64,000 nucleotides of DNA from Candidatus Eiseniibacteriota bacterium (lineage in GTDB: Bacteria > Patescibacteriota > Microgenomatia > Levybacterales > UBA12049), in contig DASQJJ010000006.1 of the NCBI GenBank assembly GCA_035631115.1, positions 11,551 to 75,550 on the forward strand. The letters run 5' to 3'. The notes beneath the pieces are model-generated. The model searched no databases, was not told the DNA's origin, and saw only the letters and a program-made list of their open reading frames with translations. Position numbers and translations under genes: made by a program. Every line of letters starts with the position of its first letter. Position 1 is the stretch's first letter. Shown piece after piece: positions 1 to 55,392 of the stretch.

Positions 1-95
1 TAGTTTGGCGCAGCTCCAAGATTCCAACCTTTTCATCACTGCTATATATTAGTATAGCAAAGAAAAGCAAGATTTGTCAACTTTGAGATCCTTCA

Positions 96-14782: not shown

Positions 14783-15907
14783 CTATGCTTTATTATTGCT
14801 TGCCACTTGTTGTAAAACTTCTAGTGTTTCTTTTGCTGTTTTTTCCCAAGAAAATTTCTTCACCTGCTCAAACCCTTTTTTTACCATTTCCTCTCGTAAT
14901 TTTGGATTGTCTAGTAATTTTTGTATTGCTTTCGTAATCTCATTAACATCTTCTGGGTTAACATAGAGAGCGCCGTCTCCTCCAGCTTCTGGTAACGAAG
15001 AGACATTACTGGTAATAACTGGCGTACCATATTTCATTGCCTCAACAACAGGCAGCCCAAATCCTTCATACAGACTTGGCAAAACAAACATCATTGCATG
15101 CTTATAAAGCGAAGGCAAATCGTCATTGCCTACAAATTCCAAGAATTTTACATCCTCTTCAACTCCAAATTTTTGTGGTGCAGCAAGAATCTCTTCATAT
15201 AACCATCCCTTTTTCCCAACAATCACGAGCTCTATCTTCTTTTCTTCATTATTTTTTAACATACTAAATGCCTCTATGAGTCGTGCAATATTTTTCCTTG
15301 GCTGAAGTGTCCCAACGAATAATATGTAGTTTTCGCCAATCCCAAACTTTTTCTGCATGTCTTTTTTATTAACTGCATTATTCATATTGCTTAATTCATT
15401 TTTTATTCCTGGATACGTTACGACCACCTTTTTTGGATTTTTTTGATACATCTGAATTATATCATTTCTTGATGCATTGCTTATGGTAAAGACACGCGAT
15501 GCATTTTTTACTGAGTACTTCGTCCAGGACGTTAACTGGTACAAATCTCTTCTTGCAAAAAGCTCTGGAAAATGAAGATATGACACATCCATTACGGCAA
15601 TTGCTGTTGGTATTGGGCAAAATCGCGGCGCATAATGAGTCGGTGAAAAAAATACATCTGGACGGGGAAAGTGAGTAAATAAGTATAACGGAAGACCTAT
15701 CTGTGTCCATAGTTTTTTTGGACCAACAAGAACATATTTCCATCCAGGTCTTTGTTTGGGCATATCTTCCCGGGGTGGATGTTTTAAATAAATATGGAAT
15801 TCAATTGAGGCTGTTTTGTAAAACTGGAGAAGCAGCTGATATGCATATTCTCCTATTCCTACTCTATTCTGCTGATTTGCCTCATTTCCATCTATACCAA
15901 TAATCAT
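14783..15907 (-). CDS. glycosyltransferase family 4 (GT-B)
   Basis: full N-domain ([21 protein letters not shown]...VVVTYPGI) and C-domain [38 protein letters not shown]. Confidence 0.8.
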
Positions 15908-15910
15908 ATT

Positions 15911-16441
15911 TTATATTCCAGGATAAATTACCGCTAATCGCTTTTCTGGGATACCCAGTATTTCCATAGCATCTTTTTTTGTTGCTTTCGAGATGCAGAT
16001 AATTCTCTCCACTTCTTTTTTAACCCACTCTAATCTTGCTTTCTGAACTTTCACTATCTTCGCGTCTGTTTCTTGTGGGTATGTGTATACAATCATGTCG
16101 TACAAAATGGTAACTTTCTTTGCTTTGGTTGGAGGCTGTGTCCAATCGGATGAAATAAATACATCTACCGGACCAATAAGCCATTCTATCGGTACAAGAT
16201 GTAGTTTGTTCCAAAGAATATTTAAAAAGGTTGGTGGAAATTTAAAAATTTTAAATTGAACTTTTGAATTTGATTGAAAATTAAAAATTGAAAATTGAAA
16301 ATTTTTCCGCATTGAGGAATAGAAAAGAATATACTCGTTTTCTTTATCCTGTTGAACCAAGTTCTGAACAAGATTAGTAAGGTATGTTGCCACCCCTGTC
16401 CCCTGATAGGCTAGTTGAGAAATATCTATTCCAATTTTCAT
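15911..16441 (-). CDS. GT4 N-terminal-domain-only protein (truncated paralog or remnant); contains heptamer repeat tract
   Basis: 176 aa; MKIGIDISQLAYQGTGVATYLTNL...RLAVIYPGI then stop, 3 bp before the next full GT4 start; low-complexity insert RKNFQFSIFNFQSNSKVQFKIFKF encoded by the 16229..16305 repeat. Confidence 0.5.
   Translation of the reverse strand: MKIGIDISQLAYQGTGVATYLTNLVQNLVQQDKENEYILFYSSMRKNFQFSIFNFQSNSKVQFKIFKFPPTFLNILWNKLHLVPIEWLIGPVDVFISSDWTQPPTKAKKVTILYDMIVYTYPQETDAKIVKVQKARLEWVKKEVERIICISKATKKDAMEILGIPEKRLAVIYPGI
16229..16305. repeat. AT-rich imperfect heptamer tract, (TTGAAAA)-type x4 at 16274..16301, in-frame inside CDS 15911..16441
   Basis: tttgattgaaaattaaaaattgaaaattgaaaatttttcc; about 36/38 identity to the core of the 18466..18526 repeat. 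Confidence 0.8.
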
Positions 16442-16659: not shown

Positions 16660-17627
16660 GTACCAATAACGATTTCTTCTTTACTTCTTGTATCACTCCT
16701 ATACCTCAAGCGGAAATGTGTTGCATGATCTACGGTAGAAAATCGTGTCATGGTATTAAGAAAAAGATCTGCCAAAAATCCTGCAACAAGCACTTGAAGT
16801 CCTGCCAACAACAAAACTATTCCCAAAAAAAGCAAAGGTCTTGTTCCTATAGAATGTCCAGAGAAATGCACAAAAGAAAGGTAAACCAAAACGATAATGC
16901 CAATAAAAGAGAGAATACCTCCTAGCATACCAAAGAAGTGCAAAGGTCTTCTTCCATACTTTGTTAGGAAAAGCATAGTAAGAATATCTGGTAAATCTTT
17001 CCACAATTTCGAAAATCCATACTTTGATTTACCATATGCCCTTTCGCTATGGGCAACAGCAACCTCTGTAACAATAAATCCTTCTCCAAAAACAAGGAGT
17101 GGAATAAAGCGATGCATTCCTCCATATAGACGAAGACTCTTTGCTGCATCACTTGTGTAGAGTTTAAGACCACAATTGTAGTCGTGAAGTTGCAATCCCC
17201 AAAAAATGCTTGCAAAAAAATTAAATAACCTTGATGAAACCACTTTTTGTATTGGATCTTTTCTTTTTTTTCTCCATCCACAGACAAGGTCGTATCCTTC
17301 TCTTGCTTTTTTATAGAGTGTTTGGATTTCCTCTGGTCTATCTTGTAAATCCGCATCGAGAGTAACAATATATTCTCCTTTTGCCATTTGAAATCCAAGC
17401 GTTAATGCTTCTGATTTTCCCTGATTTTTCCTAAAGGAAAAGAGTTTTATTTTTTTATCTCTCTGAGTCATTTTCTTAAGAAAATCAAGACTTCCATCTG
17501 TAGACCCATCATCAATGAAAAGTATTTCGTATTGCTTGTCTAGTTTCTGCAGGGCTTTTTGCAATTCTGGAAGAAAGTGGGGCAGACTCTCGTATTCATT
17601 AAAAACAGGAATAACTGCACTAATCAT
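16656..17627 (-). CDS. polyprenol-phosphate sugar synthase (GtrB/ArnC/DPM1-like GT2 with C-terminal TM pair)
   Basis: MISAVIPVFNEYESLPHFLPEL...YEILFIDDGSTDGS...VTLDADLQDRPEEI...CGWRKKRKD plus two C-terminal TM helices (LHFFGMLGGILSFIGIIVLVYL / LLFLGIVLLLAGLQVLVAGFLADLF). Confidence 0.75.
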   Translation of the reverse strand: MISAVIPVFNEYESLPHFLPELQKALQKLDKQYEILFIDDGSTDGSLDFLKKMTQRDKKIKLFSFRKNQGKSEALTLGFQMAKGEYIVTLDADLQDRPEEIQTLYKKAREGYDLVCGWRKKRKDPIQKVVSSRLFNFFASIFWGLQLHDYNCGLKLYTSDAAKSLRLYGGMHRFIPLLVFGEGFIVTEVAVAHSERAYGKSKYGFSKLWKDLPDILTMLFLTKYGRRPLHFFGMLGGILSFIGIIVLVYLSFVHFSGHSIGTRPLLFLGIVLLLAGLQVLVAGFLADLFLNTMTRFSTVDHATHFRLRYRSDTRSKEEIVIGT

Positions 17628-19684
17628 CCTTGTATTTTACCATTTTTACCCATAAATAAGCCAGCATATCCAAAAAGTACCAGTAATCCTGCCACAATAA
17701 GAGTGGCTATACTTATTTGTACTCCCTGCTCTACCCATTGCTGAGGCTTGTACACAATAGTTATGTCGTAATTTCCATCTTTGGGCAAGATGAAGCTATT
17801 AAATCTTTTGTCAAAGAGTGTGGAGTCAATCGATTTTCCTCCCACTTGTGCCTGCCAGAATGGGTCGTACATATCCGAGAAAATAAGCATTTCCCCTTTT
17901 GTAACATTTTGCACATTAACAGCATATTGAGTTGTTGCATTTTGCATAAAAAAACTTTTTCCTTGCCCTGTCAGCCAAAAATGATTCTTTACTTGACTCA
18001 GGGCGAATACATGTATTTTTCCAAAACCATTAAGTTCAGTAAGATACGACAATCTACGTACTTCTCTTACAGTATCCAAATAAACTTTCTGGTCGTATTT
18101 TCTATCGGTGAGAAAAAACTCACCCTGACTATCATATGGGACCACGACATACCCAATACTTGCTTCTCGCAATTCATTCTCTGTTTTGTTTTCATGTAAT
18201 GCATCTAACACTCCGGATATACTTGCAACGTTAAAAAAGTTATACGCGTCAACAGAAGGATGATTTTCCGAAATGTGTGCACCGAATTTTTGTGGTTGTG
18301 GTACCCAAAGTATGCGGCCAAAACTACTTTGATTATTTAAAAATGTGTCAAGCGTAGTATATTCCTTAGGAAAAGTATGTTGCTGAAATGTCCCCCCAAG
18401 CTGTCCAACAACAGCTGGCCGAACTAGAAAAACCAGACAGCCTACGAAAAGTAAGAAAAACATAATTTGAAAATTGAAAATTTTTGGTTTGATTGAAAAT
18501 TTAAAATTGAAAGTTGAAAATTTTTCTTTTTGAGATAACCAATTAGATGTTTTAAAAATAGTAAATGGAATCAATACCGAATATGATATTGCAATTATCA
18601 TGTACCACTTGGTCGGGTCTCGAAACATAATAAAACCAGGTACATGATCAAAAAGCCAAATGTACGTATTGCCAAATGGATCATTTGCGCCTTTTGCCAG
18701 AAATACTCCAAGCAGTCCAATTAATGAAAAGAATAAAATAGCTAGTTTTTCTTTCTTTTGCTTGATATCTATGAAAAATAATGATCCAAAGGCAAGAATC
18801 GGGAGCAAAAGAAATTCCCACCTCATAAAATGAGTAAAACCAAATATATTTTCAGGCCAATTTGGATGCAAAAGACCTAGCGCATCCTCAAATTTTGCAA
18901 AACTAAAAAATTGAATTGATTTTGAAGATGTGTAAATATCACCAAATTGACGAATTGCCTTCCCATGCGTAAGAAGTGTTGGTAAGAGCCAAAATGCATG
19001 GAGACCAATAATAAGTATTCCGGAAAGAGTAAAAAGAAGGAAATATTTTTTTACTTTTTCTCCAGTGAGGCCTGGTAATTCAAAAACGAATCTCAGCGTG
19101 AGAAGAAAAAGCAGTATATATCCAATACGGATATCTAAAAGAAAAATAAGAGAAAAAACCAAAGAAAAAATAACTGCACTTCTCAGTGTAATTTTTTGAA
19201 GGAGTTCTTCGAATGCGATAAAACCAAATGGAGCAAGACTGTAGGATAAGGCAATACCTGTTTGGCCTCCTCCTACTAAAAGAAGTGCATATGTGTTGGC
19301 GATATAAAGAAACCCCGCCAAAAGAGCAAAAACCTTTGACTTAAAAAAATAAAAATACAGAGACCATGCAGAAAGAAAACCAAAAAGAAGATATGGCCAA
19401 AACCAAAATATTTTTTCATACCAATTCCAACCTAGAAAGAGTGCCGTTTTTATTGTGGCAAGAAAATAAGATTCTAACCATAGCGTTGATAAATTGCTTG
19501 CACCCATTCCCATATGTCTTCCATCCCATGCAGGGAGATTGTTAATGTCAAGAATTGCTCGGTTCCAATAATAAACCCAGTCTCCACTTACGAGTAAATT
19601 CCCGGAAAACCAATTTTTGAAGACAAGCAGCAGGGGTATAAAAATAACAACAAAAAGAATAAATGTACCCAAGAATTTTTTCAT
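17624..19684 (-). CDS. large polytopic membrane protein, YfhO-like/GT-C-like, C-terminal beta domain + TM anchor; contains heptamer repeat tract
   Basis: 686 aa; about 10 N-terminal TM helices, C-terminal ...DPFWQAQVGGKSIDSTLFDKRFNSFILPKDGNYDITIVYKPQQW... then TM anchor, like the YfhO C-terminus; in-frame low-complexity insert KFSTFNFKFSIKPKIFNFQ from repeat 18466..18526. Confidence 0.5.
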   Translation of the reverse strand: MKKFLGTFILFVVIFIPLLLVFKNWFSGNLLVSGDWVYYWNRAILDINNLPAWDGRHMGMGASNLSTLWLESYFLATIKTALFLGWNWYEKIFWFWPYLLFGFLSAWSLYFYFFKSKVFALLAGFLYIANTYALLLVGGGQTGIALSYSLAPFGFIAFEELLQKITLRSAVIFSLVFSLIFLLDIRIGYILLFLLTLRFVFELPGLTGEKVKKYFLLFTLSGILIIGLHAFWLLPTLLTHGKAIRQFGDIYTSSKSIQFFSFAKFEDALGLLHPNWPENIFGFTHFMRWEFLLLPILAFGSLFFIDIKQKKEKLAILFFSLIGLLGVFLAKGANDPFGNTYIWLFDHVPGFIMFRDPTKWYMIIAISYSVLIPFTIFKTSNWLSQKEKFSTFNFKFSIKPKIFNFQIMFFLLFVGCLVFLVRPAVVGQLGGTFQQHTFPKEYTTLDTFLNNQSSFGRILWVPQPQKFGAHISENHPSVDAYNFFNVASISGVLDALHENKTENELREASIGYVVVPYDSQGEFFLTDRKYDQKVYLDTVREVRRLSYLTELNGFGKIHVFALSQVKNHFWLTGQGKSFFMQNATTQYAVNVQNVTKGEMLIFSDMYDPFWQAQVGGKSIDSTLFDKRFNSFILPKDGNYDITIVYKPQQWVEQGVQISIATLIVAGLLVLFGYAGLFMGKNGKIQG
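18466..18526. repeat. AT-rich imperfect heptamer tract, (TTGAAAA)x2 + tttgattgaaaatttaaaattgaaagttgaaaattttt, in-frame inside CDS 17624..19684
   Basis: read directly; shares a ~40-bp near-identical core with 16268..16305. Confidence 0.8.
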
Positions 19685-48853: not shown

Positions 48854-50494
48854 TTACTTGGAAAATCTTTTTAATAGAAACAAAAACAATAATCCACCAA
48901 TACCAATAAGAGAAAGAATATCTCCAAACAACCGAAATTTGGACTCCTGATAAGCTACAGATACCGTGTGTGTCCCATCTGGAACAAGAAATGTCATTAG
49001 TCCTCGATACATTGGGTCCTGAAACTCTACGCCAACTTGTTTTCCATCCACTGTTACCCTCCACCCAGGAAAATACAATGTATTTTCTAAAAGTCTACTT
49101 TCTCCCTGAGAGGAAACAATGTAGGAATGCATTGTGACAAAACGTTTCTCTTGTGTGACGAGTGCATTCCCTGATATTGGCTCTAAGGGCTTGTCAAATC
49201 TTCCTAGCATAAATCGCACAGACCATACTGGAGCACTTTCTCCTGTATCTGTTGTGCTATTGTATATACCTGTAAAAAATGATTCAGGCTTTTCTGCATA
49301 AGATTTTGCATGAAAATACTCTCTACTTAAGAAGAGCAGAATACAACAGAGAGATACTACAACAACATATTTTTTTACTCCGGATATTTGTGCTACACAA
49401 AATCCTCCAAGAAGAGAAATAGTAACAACTGGAACCGCCAAAAATCTCCATGGAAATTGAAAGTTTTGCAGGAGCATTACTTTTTGCCAAATAAATTGAG
49501 CATATGGAAGCATAAGAAAAATTGCTGCAGCAGTATATAGAATAAGCCCTCCGAGAAAAACTCTTTTTACTTTTTCTTTTTTCCAAAACCTGAGTAGCAA
49601 TACTATACTTGCAACAAGTACAATCCAGTACACAATGCCAAGTTGCATGCTTGGCGTACCATAGCTCCATTTCCCATAGAAAAGCTGCGAAAAATCAACA
49701 AATCTACTTGCGTATTCTCCTTTTGTTACAATATTCCGAAGTGTATATTGACCTTCTAGAAGAGCCGGAACCCAGAAGAAACTGCTCAAAAGAAATCCAA
49801 AAAAAATACTACCAAATAACCATATCATTGTTTTTCTTTTCCACGTATCAAGCCAGATGAGATAAAGCATATATATAATTAGTAAGGGCGTTACCATAAG
49901 GGCAATTGCATTATGAGACAAAATAAGTAGCGCTACGGAAATCGATGCAAAGATGAATCTAGATAGCGTCTTCTTTTCAAAAACAAGATACATTCCCAGT
50001 AGAGCAAGTGGAATAAAGACAAAAGCAACATGCTCACCAATATCTCCGCGTACGTATAAATCAACAAAACGATAGGGTGCGTACATATATAATATTCCCG
50101 AAACAATACCAGATGTGTATCCCCATTGTTTTTGGGCAAACAGATACATTCCTACGCCAGATGCAATCATTGCGATTGCAAAGACAAGCTTTGTGCTTTC
50201 CACAAATGAAAACCCAAAGAAATGGAGGAGGGACGCAACATATGAAGGGAATGGATACAAGAATTCAAGAATGGGATGCCCATATCCCCAATTTAAATTT
50301 TCTGCCCATCTGGGGATAAGTATTCCTTCAGATAAATTCTGATAAAAATTTGCTATTCTGGCAATGTGATCCTGCCCATCATGGGTAACAGCAAATCCTG
50401 GATGCAATAAGTCCACAATAGCAAGTAGTCCAAAAAGCAAAACTATTAGTACAGATATTCTTGAAATCATATGTATTACTCCCTTATTGTCCAT
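48854..50494 (-). CDS. YfhO-like polytopic membrane glycosyltransferase candidate
   Basis: 546 aa; N-terminal DGQDHIARIANFYQNLSEGILIPRWAENLNWGYGHPILEFLYPFPSY; C-terminal LYFPGWRVTVDGKQVGVEFQDPMYRGLMTFLVPDGTHTVSVAYQ then TM anchor. Confidence 0.55.
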   Translation of the reverse strand: MDNKGVIHMISRISVLIVLLFGLLAIVDLLHPGFAVTHDGQDHIARIANFYQNLSEGILIPRWAENLNWGYGHPILEFLYPFPSYVASLLHFFGFSFVESTKLVFAIAMIASGVGMYLFAQKQWGYTSGIVSGILYMYAPYRFVDLYVRGDIGEHVAFVFIPLALLGMYLVFEKKTLSRFIFASISVALLILSHNAIALMVTPLLIIYMLYLIWLDTWKRKTMIWLFGSIFFGFLLSSFFWVPALLEGQYTLRNIVTKGEYASRFVDFSQLFYGKWSYGTPSMQLGIVYWIVLVASIVLLLRFWKKEKVKRVFLGGLILYTAAAIFLMLPYAQFIWQKVMLLQNFQFPWRFLAVPVVTISLLGGFCVAQISGVKKYVVVVSLCCILLFLSREYFHAKSYAEKPESFFTGIYNSTTDTGESAPVWSVRFMLGRFDKPLEPISGNALVTQEKRFVTMHSYIVSSQGESRLLENTLYFPGWRVTVDGKQVGVEFQDPMYRGLMTFLVPDGTHTVSVAYQESKFRLFGDILSLIGIGGLLFLFLLKRFSK

Positions 50495-52119
50495 GCATAC
50501 AGTGATGGTTGTCCATCAAGACTATAAAAGACTTCCTTAATTATAGTATTTTTCCTTTTTGTATTGGTAACATACAATGTGTCTTTTTTTGTTGGATTGG
50601 GACCAATCATATGAAAGTATATGGTATCAATAACATGCGTTTCTTGAAATCCACCTGATTTTGTACCACCATTTTTTATGTACCTTGCTGGATCATACAT
50701 ACTATTAAAGAGGTAGAGCATATATGACTGATATCCATTATTTCTATTTGTTATGTCTACATATTGGTATGCGTTTTTTTCTTTTACAACATACGTCATT
50801 GCCTTACTTAACGCATACTGAAATGACTCTGATTGTCTTATGGGGAATACTACAAAATAGTTTACGATGAATTGATATAACCCACTCAGTACGACAACTG
50901 AGAAAAGCAGTACAAAACCAAAATATACTGGCCTGCTATGTTTTTGTAAAAATGACAAACTCATATTAATACCTAATGCAGTAATAATTTGAGGCACAGG
51001 AAGAAGCGTGTATGCTCTCATTGCGTGCGGAGCTTGTGTCGTAAGACCAGGTGCCAAAAAGTCTATCCCTGTCCATGCAAGAAGAAGTACGGTAACTTTC
51101 TTATTAATGCTTTTCGAAAGAAAAAGCAGGAAGATTCCTATGAAAAGAAATGGCGCCTCCCATACGTAAAGAAGTCCAGTATTAGGCGCTTTAAACTGCT
51201 CATCTCCAGAATTACCAAAAAGCCAAGGAAGACTAAAGTGAGAAAGATAGTTTTGAATGAAAATTTCCCCAGTGATAACTCTTCTATTATTAAGTATTTC
51301 ACCTATGTAGTTATTATGTTGCTTTGCATATAAGATATCTTTTGCTGATTGTGCGTACCGTGGATTATCGGTAAAAACTGATGTTCCTTTTAGACGGATA
51401 AGTCCACCTGGAGACAATGAAACAACAACCATTGGAATACTAATAAGTATGAATAATGCAAATCCTACAAGTGCATGTTTTTTTACTTCCAGAATATTTT
51501 TCCAAAAAAGAATAATAAGCACAAAAAGAATGCATGGAGTGAATACCTTTTCACTTTGATATCCGTAAAAGGTTAACCCAAAAAAAAGAAAAGATCCCAT
51601 GAGAGTCCATGGATTTTTACTCCTTAAAAAAGAGGTGAAAAGAAGGAGTGCTACTACAACTAAGGTTAATCCCAAATTTACTTCGTGACCAAGTCTTGAT
51701 AGATATATATGCCATGGGGAAATTGCTAAAAGAAACATAGCAAGCAGTGCAATGTATTCCTTTTTTTTGTGAGTTACTAAAAGATTCTTAGTAAGAAAAT
51801 ATGTCATAATAACTGTTGCAATAGACATAATTACAGAAGGAAGTCTTACAGACAGAACCTGAAGACCAAATATTTTTACGAAAGGAATTACCGTGTACAC
51901 ATACAATGCAGGTCTATAATCATCATATGCACGAAGAAGTATGGGCAGGAAGTATCCATACTCATCTCTTCCAGTATGGAGAATTGAGTATGCATTCCAA
52001 CCAATAGTCGCTTCATCTAGAGATGCGCTCGGCGGAATTAATGACAGAAATGAAAATCGAAGAGCAATTGCCAAAAGTATAATAAAAACAAAAAGTATTT
52101 TTCTTACCATATTACTCAC
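50476..52119 (-). CDS. GT-C fold membrane glycosyltransferase (PMT_2/ArnT-like), tandem paralog 1 of 3
   Basis: 547 aa; SLDEATIGWNAYSILHTGRDEYGYFLPILLRAYDDYRPALYVY first-loop motif. Confidence 0.6.
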   Translation of the reverse strand: MSNMVRKILFVFIILLAIALRFSFLSLIPPSASLDEATIGWNAYSILHTGRDEYGYFLPILLRAYDDYRPALYVYTVIPFVKIFGLQVLSVRLPSVIMSIATVIMTYFLTKNLLVTHKKKEYIALLAMFLLAISPWHIYLSRLGHEVNLGLTLVVVALLLFTSFLRSKNPWTLMGSFLFFGLTFYGYQSEKVFTPCILFVLIILFWKNILEVKKHALVGFALFILISIPMVVVSLSPGGLIRLKGTSVFTDNPRYAQSAKDILYAKQHNNYIGEILNNRRVITGEIFIQNYLSHFSLPWLFGNSGDEQFKAPNTGLLYVWEAPFLFIGIFLLFLSKSINKKVTVLLLAWTGIDFLAPGLTTQAPHAMRAYTLLPVPQIITALGINMSLSFLQKHSRPVYFGFVLLFSVVVLSGLYQFIVNYFVVFPIRQSESFQYALSKAMTYVVKEKNAYQYVDITNRNNGYQSYMLYLFNSMYDPARYIKNGGTKSGGFQETHVIDTIYFHMIGPNPTKKDTLYVTNTKRKNTIIKEVFYSLDGQPSLYAWTIRE

Positions 52120-53788
52120 CTCTTACAATTTCTATAGCTCCCTCATTGTTAAGGTACTCTATCCTCTTAAGTGCTGTAGTACTCTCCGAAAAATCACTTG
52201 GTCTACCAACATAAAGAATATTTGAATCTTTCTTTTCGTCTTTCCAGTTGATTGGGCGGAATTCATATTTTCCGAAAGAGTGATTTTCTCGAAATCCGCC
52301 AGATGCAAAGCGTGTTTCTTTTTGATATAAGTTTGGGTCATAACGCAAGTAAAATAAGAAAAACATGTACGACTGATCTAGTGGTGGCTGATTGGAAACA
52401 ATAACGTGCTTAGCAGGTAATTTCGAAATAGTTGCTATTGCTTCCTGATACCCATACTGCCAATCTAGCGAATTATAGTAATTTTGTTGAACAAAATATT
52501 GGTCCAGGAAATATATAAAATTAAAAAGAAAAATGCAAAATGAAAAAAGAATGACTAAATATTTAATTTGTATTTTTGCTATGTGGTATGTACTTCTTAG
52601 TAACTTTTCAAAAACAGTAAAGACTCCAAATGCGATAAATATTTGGAAAGTGGGAAGAAAATTAAGAGTTCGTACCGCATGAGGAACTCCTGTTGTAACT
52701 GATGCAGGAAGTGGAGCAAGTAAAAACCACCCAAATATAAAAATCTTTGTGTTAAGGGAATATTTTGAAAAAAGAAAACAATATATACCAATAAGCAGAA
52801 ATGGTAATTCCCAAAGATACAACAATCCCATAAATGGTGCGTGGTGTCTACTCACATCCCCATTAAGAAAAAGCCACCGCAGGTCAAAATGCGTTAGGTA
52901 ATTTGCAATAATCTCCTTTCCATATATAACGCGCCTATTATCAATGAGTAGGCCTACATAATCATGATTCTCTTTGTCTTGTCTGACTCTCAGGCTTGTT
53001 TGTGTCGAATTGCTCGTATCGGAAAATACAGAAACACCTTTTGCACGGGCCAGCGCATTGGTATTAGTTGCTAAATAAAATCCTAATGGCATAACAAGAA
53101 TAAGTCCAACAAGAATAGAAGAGAAAAGATACTTTTTTGAAACCTTCTTTATATTGTTAAAAGAAATAAAAATAAGAAGGCAGACGAAAAGTGGAACAAA
53201 AACTTTTTCACTTTGATATACATATAACGACGCGACAAAAGCAATTACGGACAAAGGCAATAGGTAGTACTTCTGCATTCCTTTGAGAAAAAAATATGCT
53301 CCAATAATATTAAGAGATAAACCAACATTAGATTCAAATCCAATTCTTGAAAATTGTATATGCCAGGGTGAAAGCGCTAAGAGAAGCGCAATAAGGAAAG
53401 ATAATTTATTATTATGGAATAGGTCCCTGCATAAAAAATAAACAACAACCACAGTTGTTATACCAAAAAGAATTGACGGCATTCTCACCGCCTCTATACT
53501 GAGTCCAAAAATAAAAAGGGATGGAATAATAAGATAGCTATAGAGCGCGGGTTTGTAATCATCAAATGATCGAAGCACTATTGGCATAAATTGACCATAT
53601 TCGTCTCTTCCCGTGTGCAAAATAGAGTAAGCATTGTATCCCAGGGCTGCTTCATCCCAATCTGGCGAAGGAGGCACATGCCCAACCAGAAATAGACGCA
53701 GAGCAGAAGTTACAATAATTAAAAGTATTACGAGAAAATATGTTTTTGTTATTTGAAATTTGAAATTTGAAATTTGAAATTTTTTCAT
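52112..53788 (-). CDS. GT-C fold membrane glycosyltransferase (PMT_2/ArnT-like), tandem paralog 2 of 3; 5-prime heptamer repeat tract
   Basis: 558 aa; DWDEAALGYNAYSILHTGRDEYGQFMPIVLRSFDDYKPALYSY; N-terminal extension MKKFQISNFKFQITK encoded by (ATTTGAA)x4 at 53751..53778. Confidence 0.6.
   Translation of the reverse strand: MKKFQISNFKFQITKTYFLVILLIIVTSALRLFLVGHVPPSPDWDEAALGYNAYSILHTGRDEYGQFMPIVLRSFDDYKPALYSYLIIPSLFIFGLSIEAVRMPSILFGITTVVVVYFLCRDLFHNNKLSFLIALLLALSPWHIQFSRIGFESNVGLSLNIIGAYFFLKGMQKYYLLPLSVIAFVASLYVYQSEKVFVPLFVCLLIFISFNNIKKVSKKYLFSSILVGLILVMPLGFYLATNTNALARAKGVSVFSDTSNSTQTSLRVRQDKENHDYVGLLIDNRRVIYGKEIIANYLTHFDLRWLFLNGDVSRHHAPFMGLLYLWELPFLLIGIYCFLFSKYSLNTKIFIFGWFLLAPLPASVTTGVPHAVRTLNFLPTFQIFIAFGVFTVFEKLLRSTYHIAKIQIKYLVILFSFCIFLFNFIYFLDQYFVQQNYYNSLDWQYGYQEAIATISKLPAKHVIVSNQPPLDQSYMFFLFYLRYDPNLYQKETRFASGGFRENHSFGKYEFRPINWKDEKKDSNILYVGRPSDFSESTTALKRIEYLNNEGAIEIVRGE
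53751..53778. repeat. perfect heptanucleotide tract (ATTTGAA)x4 followed by ATTTTTT, inside codons 4-13 of CDS 52112..53788
   Basis: read directly: atttgaa atttgaa atttgaa atttgaa attttttcat(ATG on minus strand at 53788..53786). Confidence 0.9.
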
Positions 53789-55392
53789 AGTGTATATGCA
53801 ACCAGCGATGGTTGACCATTTTGTAAAAGAAATTTCTTAAGGACAATTGCATGCTCTGGTAATTCAGATGGGCTAACAATGTACAGCGTATTCTTCATTG
53901 CAACAATCTCTTTAGGAAAATTGTATTTCCCTACTTTCTCAACATTCACAAATCCAAATGCATCTCTTGTTATTGTACTTGTCGCTCTAAATGTAGTGGG
54001 ATTAATTTTTTCATAGAAAAGAGTATACATGTATGGTCTGCCAAGTGCAGAAGTAAAAACCACGTGTGCATACTCGTTGTCGTGTGTTTTTGCATAGAGT
54101 AGTGCATCTTTATATCCATCTTGCCATTCTCCAGAAAATTCTCTCGAATAATGAGCATAATATCCATGAAGGAAGTAAAAAACAGACAGGGTAAATAATC
54201 CTAAAAATACAGATAACACAATCTTTCTCTGTTTTTTAAAGAAAAAGGATATTTCGACAAGCCCAACTGCACTTAGTATTTGCCAAGTAGGCAAAGCTCC
54301 TTCTGTACGCAAGGCATGTGGCGTCTCCCTAGCAACACCTGCGGGAATAATTGCCAAGAGTAACCAAACAGGAACAATCCACCAGTAATCAATTCTTTTT
54401 CGAAAAAGAAATAAAATACTCACAATAAGTAGTGGTATATCAAGAAGATACAACTGCCCAACATCTCGTGTTGAAAATTTTGGATTTCCATCTCCTGAGA
54501 TAAAGAGAAATGAAGGGTTAAGATTGTCTAAATAGTGTTGTATGTATGCAATACTATAAATAAGCCTTCTATTGTGAATTACTTTTGACCACACTGCATT
54601 TTTATCATTGGCAATTTCCTGATTGGACTGTTTTACAAGTCCAACATCAGAAAAAATATTTACCTCGTTATATCGAAGCTTTGACTGGGGAGAAAGAAAA
54701 AAATGTATGGCAGGTATAAGGAGGATTACACCAATAAGGCTAGCAATACCAACGAGTTTTTTATAATGCAAGATTTGCTTCCAAAATGAAAAGGCAAGAA
54801 GCATTACTAAAAGTGGCGCAACAATACGGGCACTATTGAATGTATACATTGAGAGTATAAAAGATGTTAAAGAAAGAAAAAGAAAAATTGATTTTTTATC
54901 TTGTATCCAAGACACATAAAGCCAGACGCCTACTGCAATAAAAAATGTTGCTATATTTGCCTCAAAGGCGGCCCGAGAAAGCATAATATGCCAAGGAGAT
55001 ACAGCAAGAAATAAGCTTGCCGCAAGACCATACCACTCCTTCTTACTAGATGAAAAGAAAATACGTTTTGTAAGGAAATATGTTACCAATACCATGAGAG
55101 TCCCAAAAAAAGCAGAGGAAAAGCGTGTAGCAAATTCAGTTAATCCAAATACTTTTATTGGAAGTACTTCTAGATATGCATAGATTGGAGGCTTATAGTC
55201 ACCATATGATTCAAGATAATCTAAAGGAAGAAATCGTCCAAACTCATCTTTTCCATCAATTCCTAACGAATATGCATTGTACCCCCAAGCAACCTCGTCC
55301 CATGTGAGTGATGGCGGGAGAGTGCTAAGCTGCCAAAATCTTAAAAAACCCGCTAGAAGCACTATCCCAATAAGTAAGATTGTAGTCTTCAC
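53785..55392 (-). CDS. GT-C fold membrane glycosyltransferase (PMT_2/ArnT-like), tandem paralog 3 of 3
   Basis: 535 aa; LTWDEVAWGYNAYSLGIDGKDEFGRFLPLDYLESYGDYKPPIYAY. Confidence 0.6.
   Translation of the reverse strand: MKTTILLIGIVLLAGFLRFWQLSTLPPSLTWDEVAWGYNAYSLGIDGKDEFGRFLPLDYLESYGDYKPPIYAYLEVLPIKVFGLTEFATRFSSAFFGTLMVLVTYFLTKRIFFSSSKKEWYGLAASLFLAVSPWHIMLSRAAFEANIATFFIAVGVWLYVSWIQDKKSIFLFLSLTSFILSMYTFNSARIVAPLLVMLLAFSFWKQILHYKKLVGIASLIGVILLIPAIHFFLSPQSKLRYNEVNIFSDVGLVKQSNQEIANDKNAVWSKVIHNRRLIYSIAYIQHYLDNLNPSFLFISGDGNPKFSTRDVGQLYLLDIPLLIVSILFLFRKRIDYWWIVPVWLLLAIIPAGVARETPHALRTEGALPTWQILSAVGLVEISFFFKKQRKIVLSVFLGLFTLSVFYFLHGYYAHYSREFSGEWQDGYKDALLYAKTHDNEYAHVVFTSALGRPYMYTLFYEKINPTTFRATSTITRDAFGFVNVEKVGKYNFPKEIVAMKNTLYIVSPSELPEHAIVLKKFLLQNGQPSLVAYTL

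What the first reader, a model, noticed from the sequence alone, without database searches (positions are those of the whole stretch)
53751..53788. Perfect (ATTTGAA)x4 heptanucleotide tract in codons 4-13 of a GT-C gene: candidate slipped-strand phase-variation switch
Read directly from the sequence: atttgaa x4 then attttttCAT, lying immediately 3-prime of the start codon of CDS 52112..53788 on the coding strand. Compared with its two tandem paralogs, this encodes the N-terminal extension MKKFQISNFKFQITK. A 7-bp unit is not a multiple of three, so gain or loss of one unit would frameshift the gene at its extreme 5-prime end. This is the classic architecture of contingency loci controlling surface glycan variation in pathogens. 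The start also overlaps the stop of the upstream paralog (ATGA), so a shift could also alter translational coupling.
Basis: seen in the sequence. Interest (0 to 1): 0.7.

Follow-up and report, generated by a model that had tools for sequence, protein, structure and literature searches.

The report
Heptamer repeat switch in glycosyltransferase gene
A perfect four-copy 7-base repeat sits right after the start codon of a membrane glycosyltransferase gene of an uncultured Levybacteria-type (CPR) bacterium; equivalent repeats in near-identical relatives gain and lose units and break the reading frame, so it is most likely a slippage-driven on/off switch for a cell-surface glycosylation enzyme.

Summary
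Window 53751..53782 is a perfect 7-nt repeat of 4.6 copies, (TTTCAAA)x4 on the coding strand. It occupies codons 4-13 of a 558-aa GT39/GT-C gene whose ATG overlaps the TGA of the upstream paralog.

It is not a one-off. In 576 kb of related Levybacteria GT-C loci, 38 perfect tandem tracts have period 7 and 0-2 have any other period. Of the 38, 33-34 lie in GT39 genes, at three recurrent positions.

Orthologs at 48-68% identity carry a perfect 28-nt tract at the same site, with unit TTTCAAA, TCTCAAA or TTTTCAA. This is whole-tract (concerted) unit change.

Near-clonal relatives (1 SNP in about 6 kb) differ by whole units:
- A tract placed like this one, directly after an ATGA start, occurs as n=5, 4 and 3.
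- Two internal tracts lose 7 or 14 nt and split the gene.

For the window's own tract only n=4 is known; no second strain or reads were available. Every perfect orthologous 5' tract is also n=4 and in frame.

Verdict: a real slippage-prone repeat and a well-supported candidate contingency locus. It is a new member of a known kind, in a lineage where I found none reported. Switching and adaptive value at this locus are inferred.

The parts
53751..53782 (-). Perfect heptanucleotide tract, (TTTCAAA)x4 plus partial units (4.6 copies), codons 3/4-13 of the GT39 gene
   Evidence: Chance expectation 3.6e-10.
53785..53788 (-). ATGA overlap: the ATG start of the tract-bearing gene (53788..53786) overlaps the TGA stop of the upstream paralog (53787..53785)
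   Evidence: The same junction (GCATATACACTATGAA) is present in orthologs L002, L004, L039 and L045.
52112..53788 (-). Tract-bearing gene: 558-aa GT39-family (PMT_2) GT-C glycosyltransferase
   Evidence: Pfam PF13231, E 2.3e-11. AlphaFold pLDDT 81.8, pTM 0.84. Foldseek top hits are all GT-C enzymes. The ENA gene call is identical.
53785..55392 (-). Upstream tandem paralog (535 aa, PMT/PMT_2), whose stop overlaps the start of the tract-bearing gene
50476..52074 (-). Downstream tandem paralog (PMT_2). The ENA gene call is 532 aa and starts 38 nt after the stop of the tract-bearing gene. The longest ORF runs to 52119.
52517..52551 (-). Second, degenerate heptamer tract in the same gene (TRF: period 7, 5.1 copies, 79% matches). 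It encodes ..ILFSFCIFLFNF.. and lies at 'hot spot 3', where relatives carry perfect (GCTATTT)n or (AAATTTC)n tracts.
53817..53819 (-). Out-of-frame ATG, 31 nt upstream of the annotated start and inside the 3' end of the upstream paralog. It becomes in frame with the body of the gene if the tract has 3 or 6 units. A possible weak alternative start; inferred only.
   Evidence: Analogous to allele L093 in a relative, where the n=4 allele is read from an upstream TTG.

Best explanation
The tract is a slippage-prone heptanucleotide simple-sequence repeat embedded directly after the start codon of a GT39-type GT-C glycosyltransferase gene in a Levybacteria-like (Patescibacteria/CPR) bacterium.

Proposed mechanism:
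- Replication slippage adds or removes whole 7-nt units.
- Because 7 is not a multiple of 3, only n = 1, 4 or 7 keeps the annotated ATG in frame. That ATG is translationally coupled to the upstream paralog through ATGA.
- n = 5 or 2 gives a short out-of-frame peptide and no usable downstream start (OFF).
- n = 3 or 6 terminates after 10 or 17 codons, but brings an upstream ATG into frame (OFF, or possibly low expression).

The locus therefore works as a stochastic, heritable and in principle reversible on/off switch, that is, a contingency locus. It controls one of several paralogous membrane glycosyltransferases that presumably glycosylate envelope proteins or glycans.

It belongs to a lineage-wide set of heptamer tracts at three recurrent positions in these paralogs.

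Shown: the tract, the frame consequences, conservation with unit turnover in orthologs, and unit-number polymorphism with ORF disruption at equivalent tracts in near-clonal relatives.

Inferred: slippage at this particular tract, reversibility, and any adaptive benefit.
For: 1. Statistical reality. The tract is perfect at 4.6 copies and far beyond chance.

2. Frame arithmetic was computed for n=1..7.

3. Orthologs. Loci at 48-68% protein identity have a perfect 28-nt tract at the same place but with different units: TTTCAAA (window, L007), TCTCAAA (L002), TTTTCAA (L039, L045; L004 has one mismatch). Tract identity between species is 0.86-1.00. By contrast the adjacent TM1-coding DNA is 0.53-0.68 identical and third codon positions 0.30-0.62. 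A change shared by all four units implies repeated unit turnover.

4. Period specificity. In 576 kb of related loci, 38 perfect tandem match-runs of >=12 nt have period 7. Every other period from 2 to 30 has 0-2, apart from 14 and 21.

5. Location. 33-34 of the 38 tracts lie in GT39 ORFs, which make up 60% of the bases (P about 6e-5 to 3e-4). 26 of 80 species-level loci have at least one tract.

6. Direct polymorphism, species 1. L029, L093 and L088 have one mismatch and only heptamer-unit gaps over 5.5-6.3 kb. A 5'-end (AAAACAG)n tract directly after an ATGA start occurs as n=5 (512 aa, seen on 15 contigs), n=4 (read from an upstream TTG) and n=3 (gene called from a downstream ATG, 456 aa). 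A hot-spot-2 (GAAATTG) tract loses one unit in L088 and splits the GT39 gene into 129 + 435 aa.

7. Direct polymorphism, species 2. L080 has (AAATTTC)x5. L089 has x3 and the gene is split into 406 + 111 aa, with one SNP in 5.8 kb. L090 has a 47-nt deletion at the tract. Two Logan contigs begin inside the tract.

8. The peptide is dispensable. The closest homologs P0003, P0005, P0007 and P0010 (66-69% identity) lack the extension.
Against: - No variation has been observed at this tract or at its strict orthologs. All six perfect 5' tracts have exactly 4 units and are in frame.
- Three strains of the L045 species (6-7 SNPs apart), and 10 contigs encoding the identical protein, all keep n=4.
- A search with an artificially lengthened repeat peptide found no GT39 protein with a longer 5' tract.
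- In the 80 species-representative genomes, all 26 tracts of >=3 copies that lie inside an ORF are in frame. OFF alleles are therefore a minority, roughly 5-10% of contigs in the two species where they were seen.
- Four units is short compared with classic phase-variable tracts.
- The 5'-end tract shown to vary has 5 units and lies in a 512-aa neighbour gene that has no Pfam hit. Its similarity to GT39 is weak (hhalign prob 42%).
- Reversibility and fitness benefit are untested.
Confidence: 0.6

Rival explanations
1. Non-adaptive by-product. These genomes have a heptamer-biased slippage process. The tract is a tolerated in-frame +21-nt expansion (1 to 4 units) in a permissive N-terminal tail. 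Unit-number variants in relatives are ordinary loss-of-function mutations in partly redundant paralogs, not a maintained switch.
For: - An excess of heptamer repeats has been noted in many bacteria and tentatively attributed to the polymerase (PMC4692102).
- Heptamer tracts also occur between genes. Two lie in the 2% of bases that are non-ORF, including (AGATTTA)x8.9 in L037.
- All tracts in species representatives are in frame.
- n=4 tracts were not seen to vary.
- The three hot spots coincide with short helix-connecting or terminal segments in the model.
- In-ORF units are simply those free of stop codons in all three frames.
Against: - Tract density is about 10-fold lower in other ORFs than in GT39 ORFs.
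- 6- and 9-nt repeats, which would be better tolerated in coding DNA, are absent.
- Perfect tracts persist at the same sites across species whose synonymous sites are saturated. This needs continuing turnover through out-of-frame intermediates.
- OFF alleles are the consensus of whole assemblies and so reach high frequency in some samples. In L088 two tracts are OFF together.
Confidence: 0.3
2. The repeat is kept for what it encodes or for its mRNA. It could be a functional N-terminal cytoplasmic peptide (K/F/Q/I/S/N-rich, extending TM1). Or it could be an unstructured A/U-rich stretch downstream of the start codon that helps re-initiation after the overlapping stop.
For: - The 28-nt length is fixed in six species.
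- The tract is unpaired in the predicted mRNA fold.
- AlphaFold extends the TM1 helix back to residue 6.
- The tail is lysine-rich, which fits a cytoplasmic location.
Against: - Perfect 7-nt periodicity is not needed for either role, and synonymous drift would erase it.
- The closest homologs lack the extension.
- The same kinds of tract, even the same units, occur at internal positions, including inside a TM-helix-coding segment.
- The encoded peptide differs between orthologs: KFQISNF, KSQISNL and KFSIFNF.
- pLDDT for residues 1-10 is about 52.
- The mRNA fold is no different from shuffled controls (z -0.36).
Confidence: 0.07
3. Assembly or sequencing artefact, or a programmed ribosomal frameshift site. 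The unit A_AAT_TTC fits the X_XXY_YYZ slippery pattern.
For: The unit formally fits a slippery heptamer. The source is a metagenome assembly.
Against: - The 32-nt tract is shorter than a sequencing read.
- The identical protein is recorded from NCBI and ENA, and two contigs carry it.
- Orthologs from other assemblers carry equivalent tracts.
- There is no downstream stimulatory structure.
- There is no alternative ORF to shift into. The other frames stop after 10-47 codons.
Confidence: 0.03

Closest known systems
Neisseria pglE (protein O-glycosylation glycosyltransferase), phase-varied by an intragenic heptanucleotide repeat
   Same: A 7-nt coding repeat in a glycosyltransferase of a protein/glycan glycosylation pathway. 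Unit gain or loss frameshifts the gene. It is one of several switchable transferases in the same pathway (PMC7157529).
   Different: pglE is a soluble GT-B type enzyme in a host-adapted pathogen, and from my own knowledge its tracts are usually much longer and vary widely between isolates. Here the enzyme is a GT-C/GT39 membrane protein and the host is an environmental CPR bacterium. The tract has only 4 units and has not been seen to vary at this locus.
Haemophilus influenzae LOS contingency genes (lic1A, lic2A, lgtC, lex2A) with 5'-end tetranucleotide repeats
   Same: The repeat lies just after the start codon. Frame determines ON or OFF. Alternative start codons in other frames can give intermediate expression (from my own knowledge). 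Compare the upstream ATG in the window and the TTG-read n=4 allele L093. A survey of H. influenzae repeats is in PMC2651432.
   Different: The unit there is 4 nt and tracts are typically much longer (my own knowledge). Mutation rates and reversibility have been measured experimentally. None of that is available here.
Heptanucleotide repeats of H. influenzae (hmw1A/hmw2A promoters; AACAACC in a TonB-dependent receptor; AATTTTG inside hmw1A)
   Same: 7-nt units whose copy number differs between strains, in some cases frameshifting an ORF (PMC2651432).
   Different: They are mostly promoter-located, with 13-38 copies, and regulate adhesins or receptors rather than GT-C enzymes.
Heptamer tandem repeats of cyanobacteria (STRR), Xanthomonas (GGGAATC) and Beggiatoaceae (TAACTGA)
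   Same: A striking genome-level preference for exactly 7-nt tandem units, with length variation between close relatives (PMC4692102, PMC4679880).
   Different: Those use one or a few fixed units, are intergenic, and have been discussed as regulatory or structural elements. Here there are at least 14 different units, almost all inside coding sequence and in frame.

Membership tests
SSR-mediated phase-variable (contingency) locus | Perfect tandem repeat, with unit length not divisible by 3, inside the ORF or promoter | tested here: met
   (TTTCAAA)x4.6, 100% matches, codons 4-13.
SSR-mediated phase-variable (contingency) locus | Gain or loss of one unit abolishes or restores the full-length product | tested here: met
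   In-silico alleles n=1..7. n=1, 4 and 7 are ON. n=2 and 5 give 40- and 47-aa peptides. n=3 and 6 give 10- and 17-aa peptides.
SSR-mediated phase-variable (contingency) locus | Copy number differs between closely related strains or within a population at this locus | not testable with these tools
   No reads were available. No second strain was found: 0 hits for the flank pattern in the metagenome scan, and the nearest protein homolog is 69% identical.
SSR-mediated phase-variable (contingency) locus | Copy-number polymorphism at equivalent tracts in relatives | tested here: met
   L029/L093/L088 carry n=5/4/3 at a 5'-end tract and differ by one unit at an internal tract. L080 vs L089 is n=5 vs 3. 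Each pair has one mismatch in 5.5-6.3 kb.
SSR-mediated phase-variable (contingency) locus | Copy-number polymorphism at the strictly orthologous 5' tract | tested here: not met
   Six species all have 4 units. L045, L086 and L087, and 10 contigs of that species, all have n=4. The sample is small and only n = 1, 4 or 7 is in frame.
SSR-mediated phase-variable (contingency) locus | High-frequency, reversible switching | not testable with these tools
   Needs cultures, time series or deep read data.
SSR-mediated phase-variable (contingency) locus | Gene product acts on the cell surface | tested here: inconclusive
   The GT39/PMT_2 family and GT-C fold imply lipid-linked sugar transfer on the outer face of the membrane. 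The substrate is unknown.
GT-C glycosyltransferase, GT39/PMT_2 family | Family profile match above the curated threshold | tested here: met
   PF13231 scores 44.6 bits against a cut-off of 26.1, E 2.3e-11. NCBI names the identical protein 'glycosyltransferase family 39 protein'.
GT-C glycosyltransferase, GT39/PMT_2 family | Multi-pass GT-C fold with an acidic motif in the first extracytoplasmic loop | tested here: met
   AlphaFold model pTM 0.84. Foldseek hits are STT3, PglB, ALG12, ArnT, EmbC and Pmt4 at prob 1.0. D43-W-D-E46 is invariant in 27 homologs. There is no sequence-level PDB hit.
Programmed -1 ribosomal frameshift site | Slippery heptamer plus a downstream stimulatory structure and an ORF in the shifted frame | tested here: not met
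   A_AAT_TTC fits the pattern. However, the region is unstructured (z -0.36) and the shifted frames end within 10-47 codons.

The most novel reading that the evidence does not exclude
Levybacteria, and possibly other Microgenomates (CPR) bacteria, maintain a 'phasome' made exclusively of heptanucleotide repeats. The repeats are embedded at three conserved positions: the 5' end, about codon 120, and about codon 400, the last including a TM-helix-coding segment. They occur in several paralogous GT-C glycosyltransferases. This would allow combinatorial, heritable on/off (and possibly low-level) expression of envelope glycosylation enzymes, and so surface variation against phages or host cells. 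It would be the first contingency-locus system described in the candidate phyla radiation, and the window's tract would be one of its switches.
Probability: 0.35. Interest if true: 0.8.

Novelty: new member of a known kind. Interest (0 to 1): 0.62.

Why it matters
CPR/Patescibacteria are ultra-small, mostly episymbiotic bacteria. Their biology depends on their cell surface, and almost nothing is known about how they vary it. My literature searches found no paper linking CPR or Patescibacteria with SSR-based phase variation.

If the tracts act as switches, a large share of these genomes' unusually numerous GT-C paralogs would be stochastically expressed. That would affect how metagenome-assembled 'pseudogenes' and split genes in these lineages are interpreted. 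It would also give a concrete, read-countable marker of surface variation in natural populations.

The near-exclusive 7-nt periodicity is a sharp instance of the long-noted but unexplained heptamer bias of bacterial tandem repeats.

Tried and rejected
- **Same-species alleles of the window tract.** An exact flank pattern in JGI metagenomes gave 0 hits. The exact-protein look-up found only 2 contigs, both n=4.
- **Degenerate junction-plus-tract pattern in JGI metagenomes.** It found only two loci, both the L045 species with n=4.
- **Alternative downstream start that would put the tract in a 5' UTR.** There is none before codon 38.
- **RNA families and tRNAs in the window.** None were found.
- **RNA structure or PRF stimulator.** None was found.
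- **Sequence search against PDB.** No hit. The fold search was needed instead.
- **Idea that TTGAAA/TTTCAA clusters are a promoter-like or protein-binding motif.** Four same-strand clusters exist in the window. I rejected the idea because the units differ widely across loci.
- **Idea that unit conservation reflects a specific DNA motif.** It is better explained by AT bias plus the need to be stop-free in all three frames.
- **Search with an artificially lengthened repeat peptide for n>=7 alleles.** It found no GT39 protein with a longer 5' tract. It found only spurious small ORFs over heptamer arrays in unrelated bacteria.
- **Other split or short members of the looked-up protein clusters.** L086 is split by a 1-nt deletion in a T run, not by a heptamer. 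For the P0138/P0141 split, the 1069-aa fusion P0142 and P0158, the protein sequences show a change away from the known heptamer hot spots, but their DNA was not examined.
Full report
**1. The observation**

The + strand at 53751..53788 reads (ATTTGAA)x4 ATTTTTTCAT. On the coding (-) strand this is ATG AAA AAA (TTTCAAA)x4 TAACAAAAACA, which gives MKKFQISNFKFQITK.

Tandem Repeats Finder reports 53751..53782, period 7, 4.6 copies, 100% matches. It is the only perfect repeat of >=3 copies with period 5-12 in the window. Its 25-nt match-run compares with a maximum of 11 in 200 shuffles and an expectation of 3.6e-10.

The ORF 52112..53788(-) encodes 558 aa. Its ATG overlaps the TGA of the upstream ORF 53785..55392(-), forming ATGA. 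No in-frame start codon follows the tract until GTG at codon 38, which lies beyond the first transmembrane helix. The tract is therefore coding, not leader.

Two contigs that carry the exact protein were read, the window's being the 73-kb ENA one, and the identical protein is also recorded from NCBI (longest contig 88 kb), so an assembly artefact is unlikely.

**2. The gene and its setting**

- The product hits Pfam PMT_2 at E 2e-11. Its two neighbours are paralogs, and a fourth GT-C (PTPS_related/PMT_2) follows.
- An AlphaFold model (pLDDT 81.8, pTM 0.84) matches only GT-C enzymes in the PDB: STT3, PglB, ALG12, ArnT, EmbC and Pmt4, all at probability 1.0.
- The window is ENA contig ERZ27257288:k141_221736. 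It is an almost unidirectional cluster of more than 60 kb of glycosylation and envelope genes.
- The nearest homologs are only 66-69% identical. They come from Patescibacteria, Microgenomates and Levybacteria MAGs.

**3. Orthologs**

Many orthologs have N-terminal peptides with a 7-residue period. Their DNA shows why:

| Locus | Protein identity | Sequence after the start |
|---|---|---|
| L002 | 67% | ATGAA(ATCTCAA)x4 |
| L007 | 68% | (TTTCAAA)x4; the contig starts 9 nt upstream |
| L039, L045 | 48-51% | (TTTTCAA)x4 |
| L004 | 59% | (TTTTCAA)x4 with one mismatch |
| L003, L010 | | degenerate tracts |

All except L007, whose contig starts 9 nt upstream of the tract and is unresolved there, lie directly after the same VAYTL*/ATGA junction.

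In all six perfect or near-perfect cases the tract is exactly 28 nt. Tract identity between species is 0.86-1.00. The adjacent TM1-coding DNA is 0.53-0.68 identical, and third codon positions of the conserved catalytic loop are 0.30-0.62 identical.

A substitution shared by all four units (TTTCAAA vs TCTCAAA vs TTTTCAA) cannot arise from four independent hits. It implies repeated unit turnover, that is, concerted evolution by slippage. Because steps of one unit are out of frame, the lineage must have passed through OFF intermediates or made multi-unit jumps.

Equally close homologs lack the extension altogether (MKTWMIVV...). The peptide is therefore dispensable.

**4. A lineage-wide heptamer phenomenon**

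The survey covered 576 kb: 80 species-representative loci from GTDB genomes plus the window.

- Perfect tandem match-runs of >=12 nt number 38 at period 7. Every other period from 2 to 30 has 0-2, except 14 and 21, which are imperfect heptamer tracts.
- At least 14 different units occur. All in-ORF units of >=3 copies but one are free of stop codons in all three frames. The exception, the 3.1-copy AAAACTT tract of L029, ends where a further copy would create TAA. The intergenic units are not stop-free.
- 33-34 of the 38 tracts lie in GT39-like ORFs, which make up 60% of the bases (P about 6e-5 to 3e-4). Two lie in the 2% of bases that are intergenic. Only 2-3 lie in the 38% made up of other ORFs.
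- They cluster at three positions in GT39 paralogs: codons 2-13, about 113-128 and about 385-425. The last includes a stretch that encodes part of a TM helix (LFAICYLLFAIFNF).
- The window gene carries a degenerate tract at the third position, 52517..52551.
- In the species representatives, every one of the 26 in-ORF tracts of >=3 copies is in frame.

**5. Direct evidence that such tracts change**

Cluster look-ups found truncated or split variants of tract-bearing proteins. Their contigs were then compared.

*Crystal Geyser-type Levybacteria (L029, L093, L088).* L093 and L088 each differ from L029 by one mismatch over 5.5-6.3 kb, plus gaps that are whole heptamer units.

- The first tract is a 5'-end (AAAACAG)n tract directly after an ATGA start. 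It lies in a 512-aa membrane protein next to the GT39 ortholog.
  - n=5: the 512-aa product, seen on 15 contigs.
  - n=4: read by the gene caller from an upstream TTG.
  - n=3: called from a downstream ATG, 456 aa.
- The second is the hot-spot-2 (GAAATTG) tract of the GT39 ortholog. It loses one unit in L088, and the gene splits into 129 + 435 aa.

*Rifle-type Levybacteria (L080).*

- L080 has (AAATTTC)x5 at hot spot 3, and the intact protein is seen on 38 contigs.
- L089 has x3 and the gene is split into 406 + 111 aa, with one SNP in 5.8 kb.
- L090 has a 47-nt deletion at the tract.
- Two Logan contigs begin inside the tract.

In the L029/L088 pair, two of three tracts changed while 1 of about 6300 sites did. 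Per tract, that is roughly three orders of magnitude more change than per nucleotide site. The OFF alleles are the consensus of whole assemblies.

**6. What is not shown**

- The 5'-end tract seen to vary has 5 units. Its gene has no Pfam hit and only weak GT39-like profile similarity (hhalign probability 42%).
- The strictly orthologous 4-unit tracts did not vary among three strains 6-7 SNPs apart, or among 10 contigs of that species.
- No GT39 protein with a longer 5' tract was found.
- For the window's own species there is no second strain and no reads.
- Reversibility and benefit are untested.

**7. Mechanism proposed for the window locus**

- n=4, 1 or 7: the annotated ATG, coupled to the upstream stop, gives the full-length enzyme.
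- n=5 or 2: a 47- or 40-aa out-of-frame peptide, and no start before codon 38. This is OFF.
- n=3 or 6: termination after 10 or 17 codons. However, the body of the gene becomes continuous with an upstream open frame that contains ATG codons at -31 (53819..53817) and -64. A weak third state is possible, as in allele L093.
- The upstream paralog is unaffected, because its stop precedes the tract.
- The mRNA around the start is unstructured and no different from shuffled controls. This gives no support to a frameshift-stimulating or regulatory RNA structure.

**8. Rival explanations**

The main rival uses the same mutational mechanism without adaptive maintenance: a heptamer-biased slippage process whose products survive only where they are tolerated.

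- It fits the known heptamer bias of bacterial repeats (PMC4692102), the intergenic tracts, and the in-frame state of all representatives.
- It fits less well with several findings: the roughly 10-fold depletion in other ORFs, the absence of frame-neutral 6- and 9-nt repeats, the persistence of perfect tracts at fixed sites over deep divergence, and OFF alleles reaching consensus frequency.

A functional-peptide or translation-enhancer role is unlikely. It would not need perfect 7-nt periodicity, homologs without the extension exist, and identical tract types occur at internal positions.

**9. Comparison with known systems**

- The closest analogue is Neisseria pglE, a glycosylation transferase switched by an intragenic heptanucleotide repeat (PMC7157529).
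- Also close are the 5'-end tetranucleotide switches of H. influenzae LOS genes and its heptanucleotide repeats (PMC2651432).
- Heptamer-specific tandem repeats are known in cyanobacteria, Xanthomonas and Beggiatoaceae, but those are intergenic and have fixed units.
- Searches found no report of SSR phase variation in CPR or Patescibacteria.

**10. Verdict**

The tract is a real slippage-type heptamer repeat. It belongs to a family whose members demonstrably change unit number and knock out GT-C-region genes in near-clonal populations. Switching at this particular 4-unit tract, and any adaptive role, remain inferred.

It is a new member of a known kind. Interest is moderate to high because of the lineage and the heptamer-only, multi-site pattern.

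Noticed in passing
window 16273..16303 and 18467..18522: There are two further imperfect TTTTCAA-type heptamer clusters on the same strand, both inside other glycosylation-type genes. One lies in a GT4 N-domain ORF 15911..16441(-), encoding KNFQFSIFNFQ. The other lies in a 686-aa multi-pass membrane protein 17624..19684(-), encoding FSTFNFKFSIKPKIFNFQI just before a TM helix. Pairs of TTGAAA spaced 7 nt apart occur at only four loci in the window, all in the same orientation.
   Followed up: partly
window 15911..16441 (-) and 14783..15907 (-): The 176-aa ORF contains only the N-terminal Glyco_transf_4 domain. It ends 4 nt inside the start of a complete GT4 gene. It looks like a truncated duplicate or gene remnant.
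   Followed up: no
whole window; P0001 record: NCBI labels the MAG that carries this exact protein 'Candidatus Eisenbacteria bacterium'. Every close homolog and syntenic locus is Patescibacteria, Microgenomates or Levybacteria. The label is probably a binning or taxonomy error.
   Followed up: no
L037 698..759: An intergenic (AGATTTA)x8.9 tract, the longest heptamer array seen, lies next to a masked N run. It is followed by degenerate TTGAAAA/TTTCAAA heptamers, about 85 nt upstream of the first GT39 gene of the operon. It may be a promoter-region repeat.
   Followed up: partly
L061 2862..2905: Directly after an (AACTCAA)x4.4 tract there is a tandem 21-nt duplication (AAAACCGCGTCAGACGCGGTC x2, encoding KTASDAV twice). 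It contains a GC-rich inverted repeat, which is unusual in this AT-rich gene.
   Followed up: no
L080 3606..3650 vs L016 3642..3663: Orthologous hot-spot-3 tracts have 5 and 3 units in two species. Frame is restored in L080 by one extra C at the 3' edge of the tract (14+1 nt). This looks like a footprint of a slippage frameshift fixed by a compensating indel.
   Followed up: partly
L007 1..40 (CAYOZJ010000018.1); L091 and L092 starts: Three contigs from SPAdes or Logan assemblies begin within or 9 nt upstream of a heptamer tract. This is what population length heterogeneity would do to a de Bruijn graph, but it is anecdotal.
   Followed up: no
P0142 (KKQ96288, 1069 aa); P0171 vs P0172: A 1069-aa fusion of two adjacent GT39 paralogs is recorded in one Levybacteria MAG. 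Separately, two proteins placed in the same 90%-identity cluster have completely different first ~25 residues, one with the (TTTTCAA)x4 tract and one without.
   Followed up: no
proteins P0186-P0249: Peptides such as FKFQISN and KSQISNL, which are translations of (TTTCAAA)n or (TCTCAAA)n arrays, appear in small hypothetical ORFs of unrelated bacteria and many metagenome contigs. Examples are Flavobacterium fontis and Desulfonema magnum. Heptamer arrays of this unit family are therefore widespread outside CPR.
   Followed up: no
L086 about 575 (vs L045 2908): A 1-nt deletion in a TTTT run splits the GT39 ortholog in one JGI contig. This shows that not all split GT39 genes in these data are due to heptamer tracts.
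   Followed up: partly
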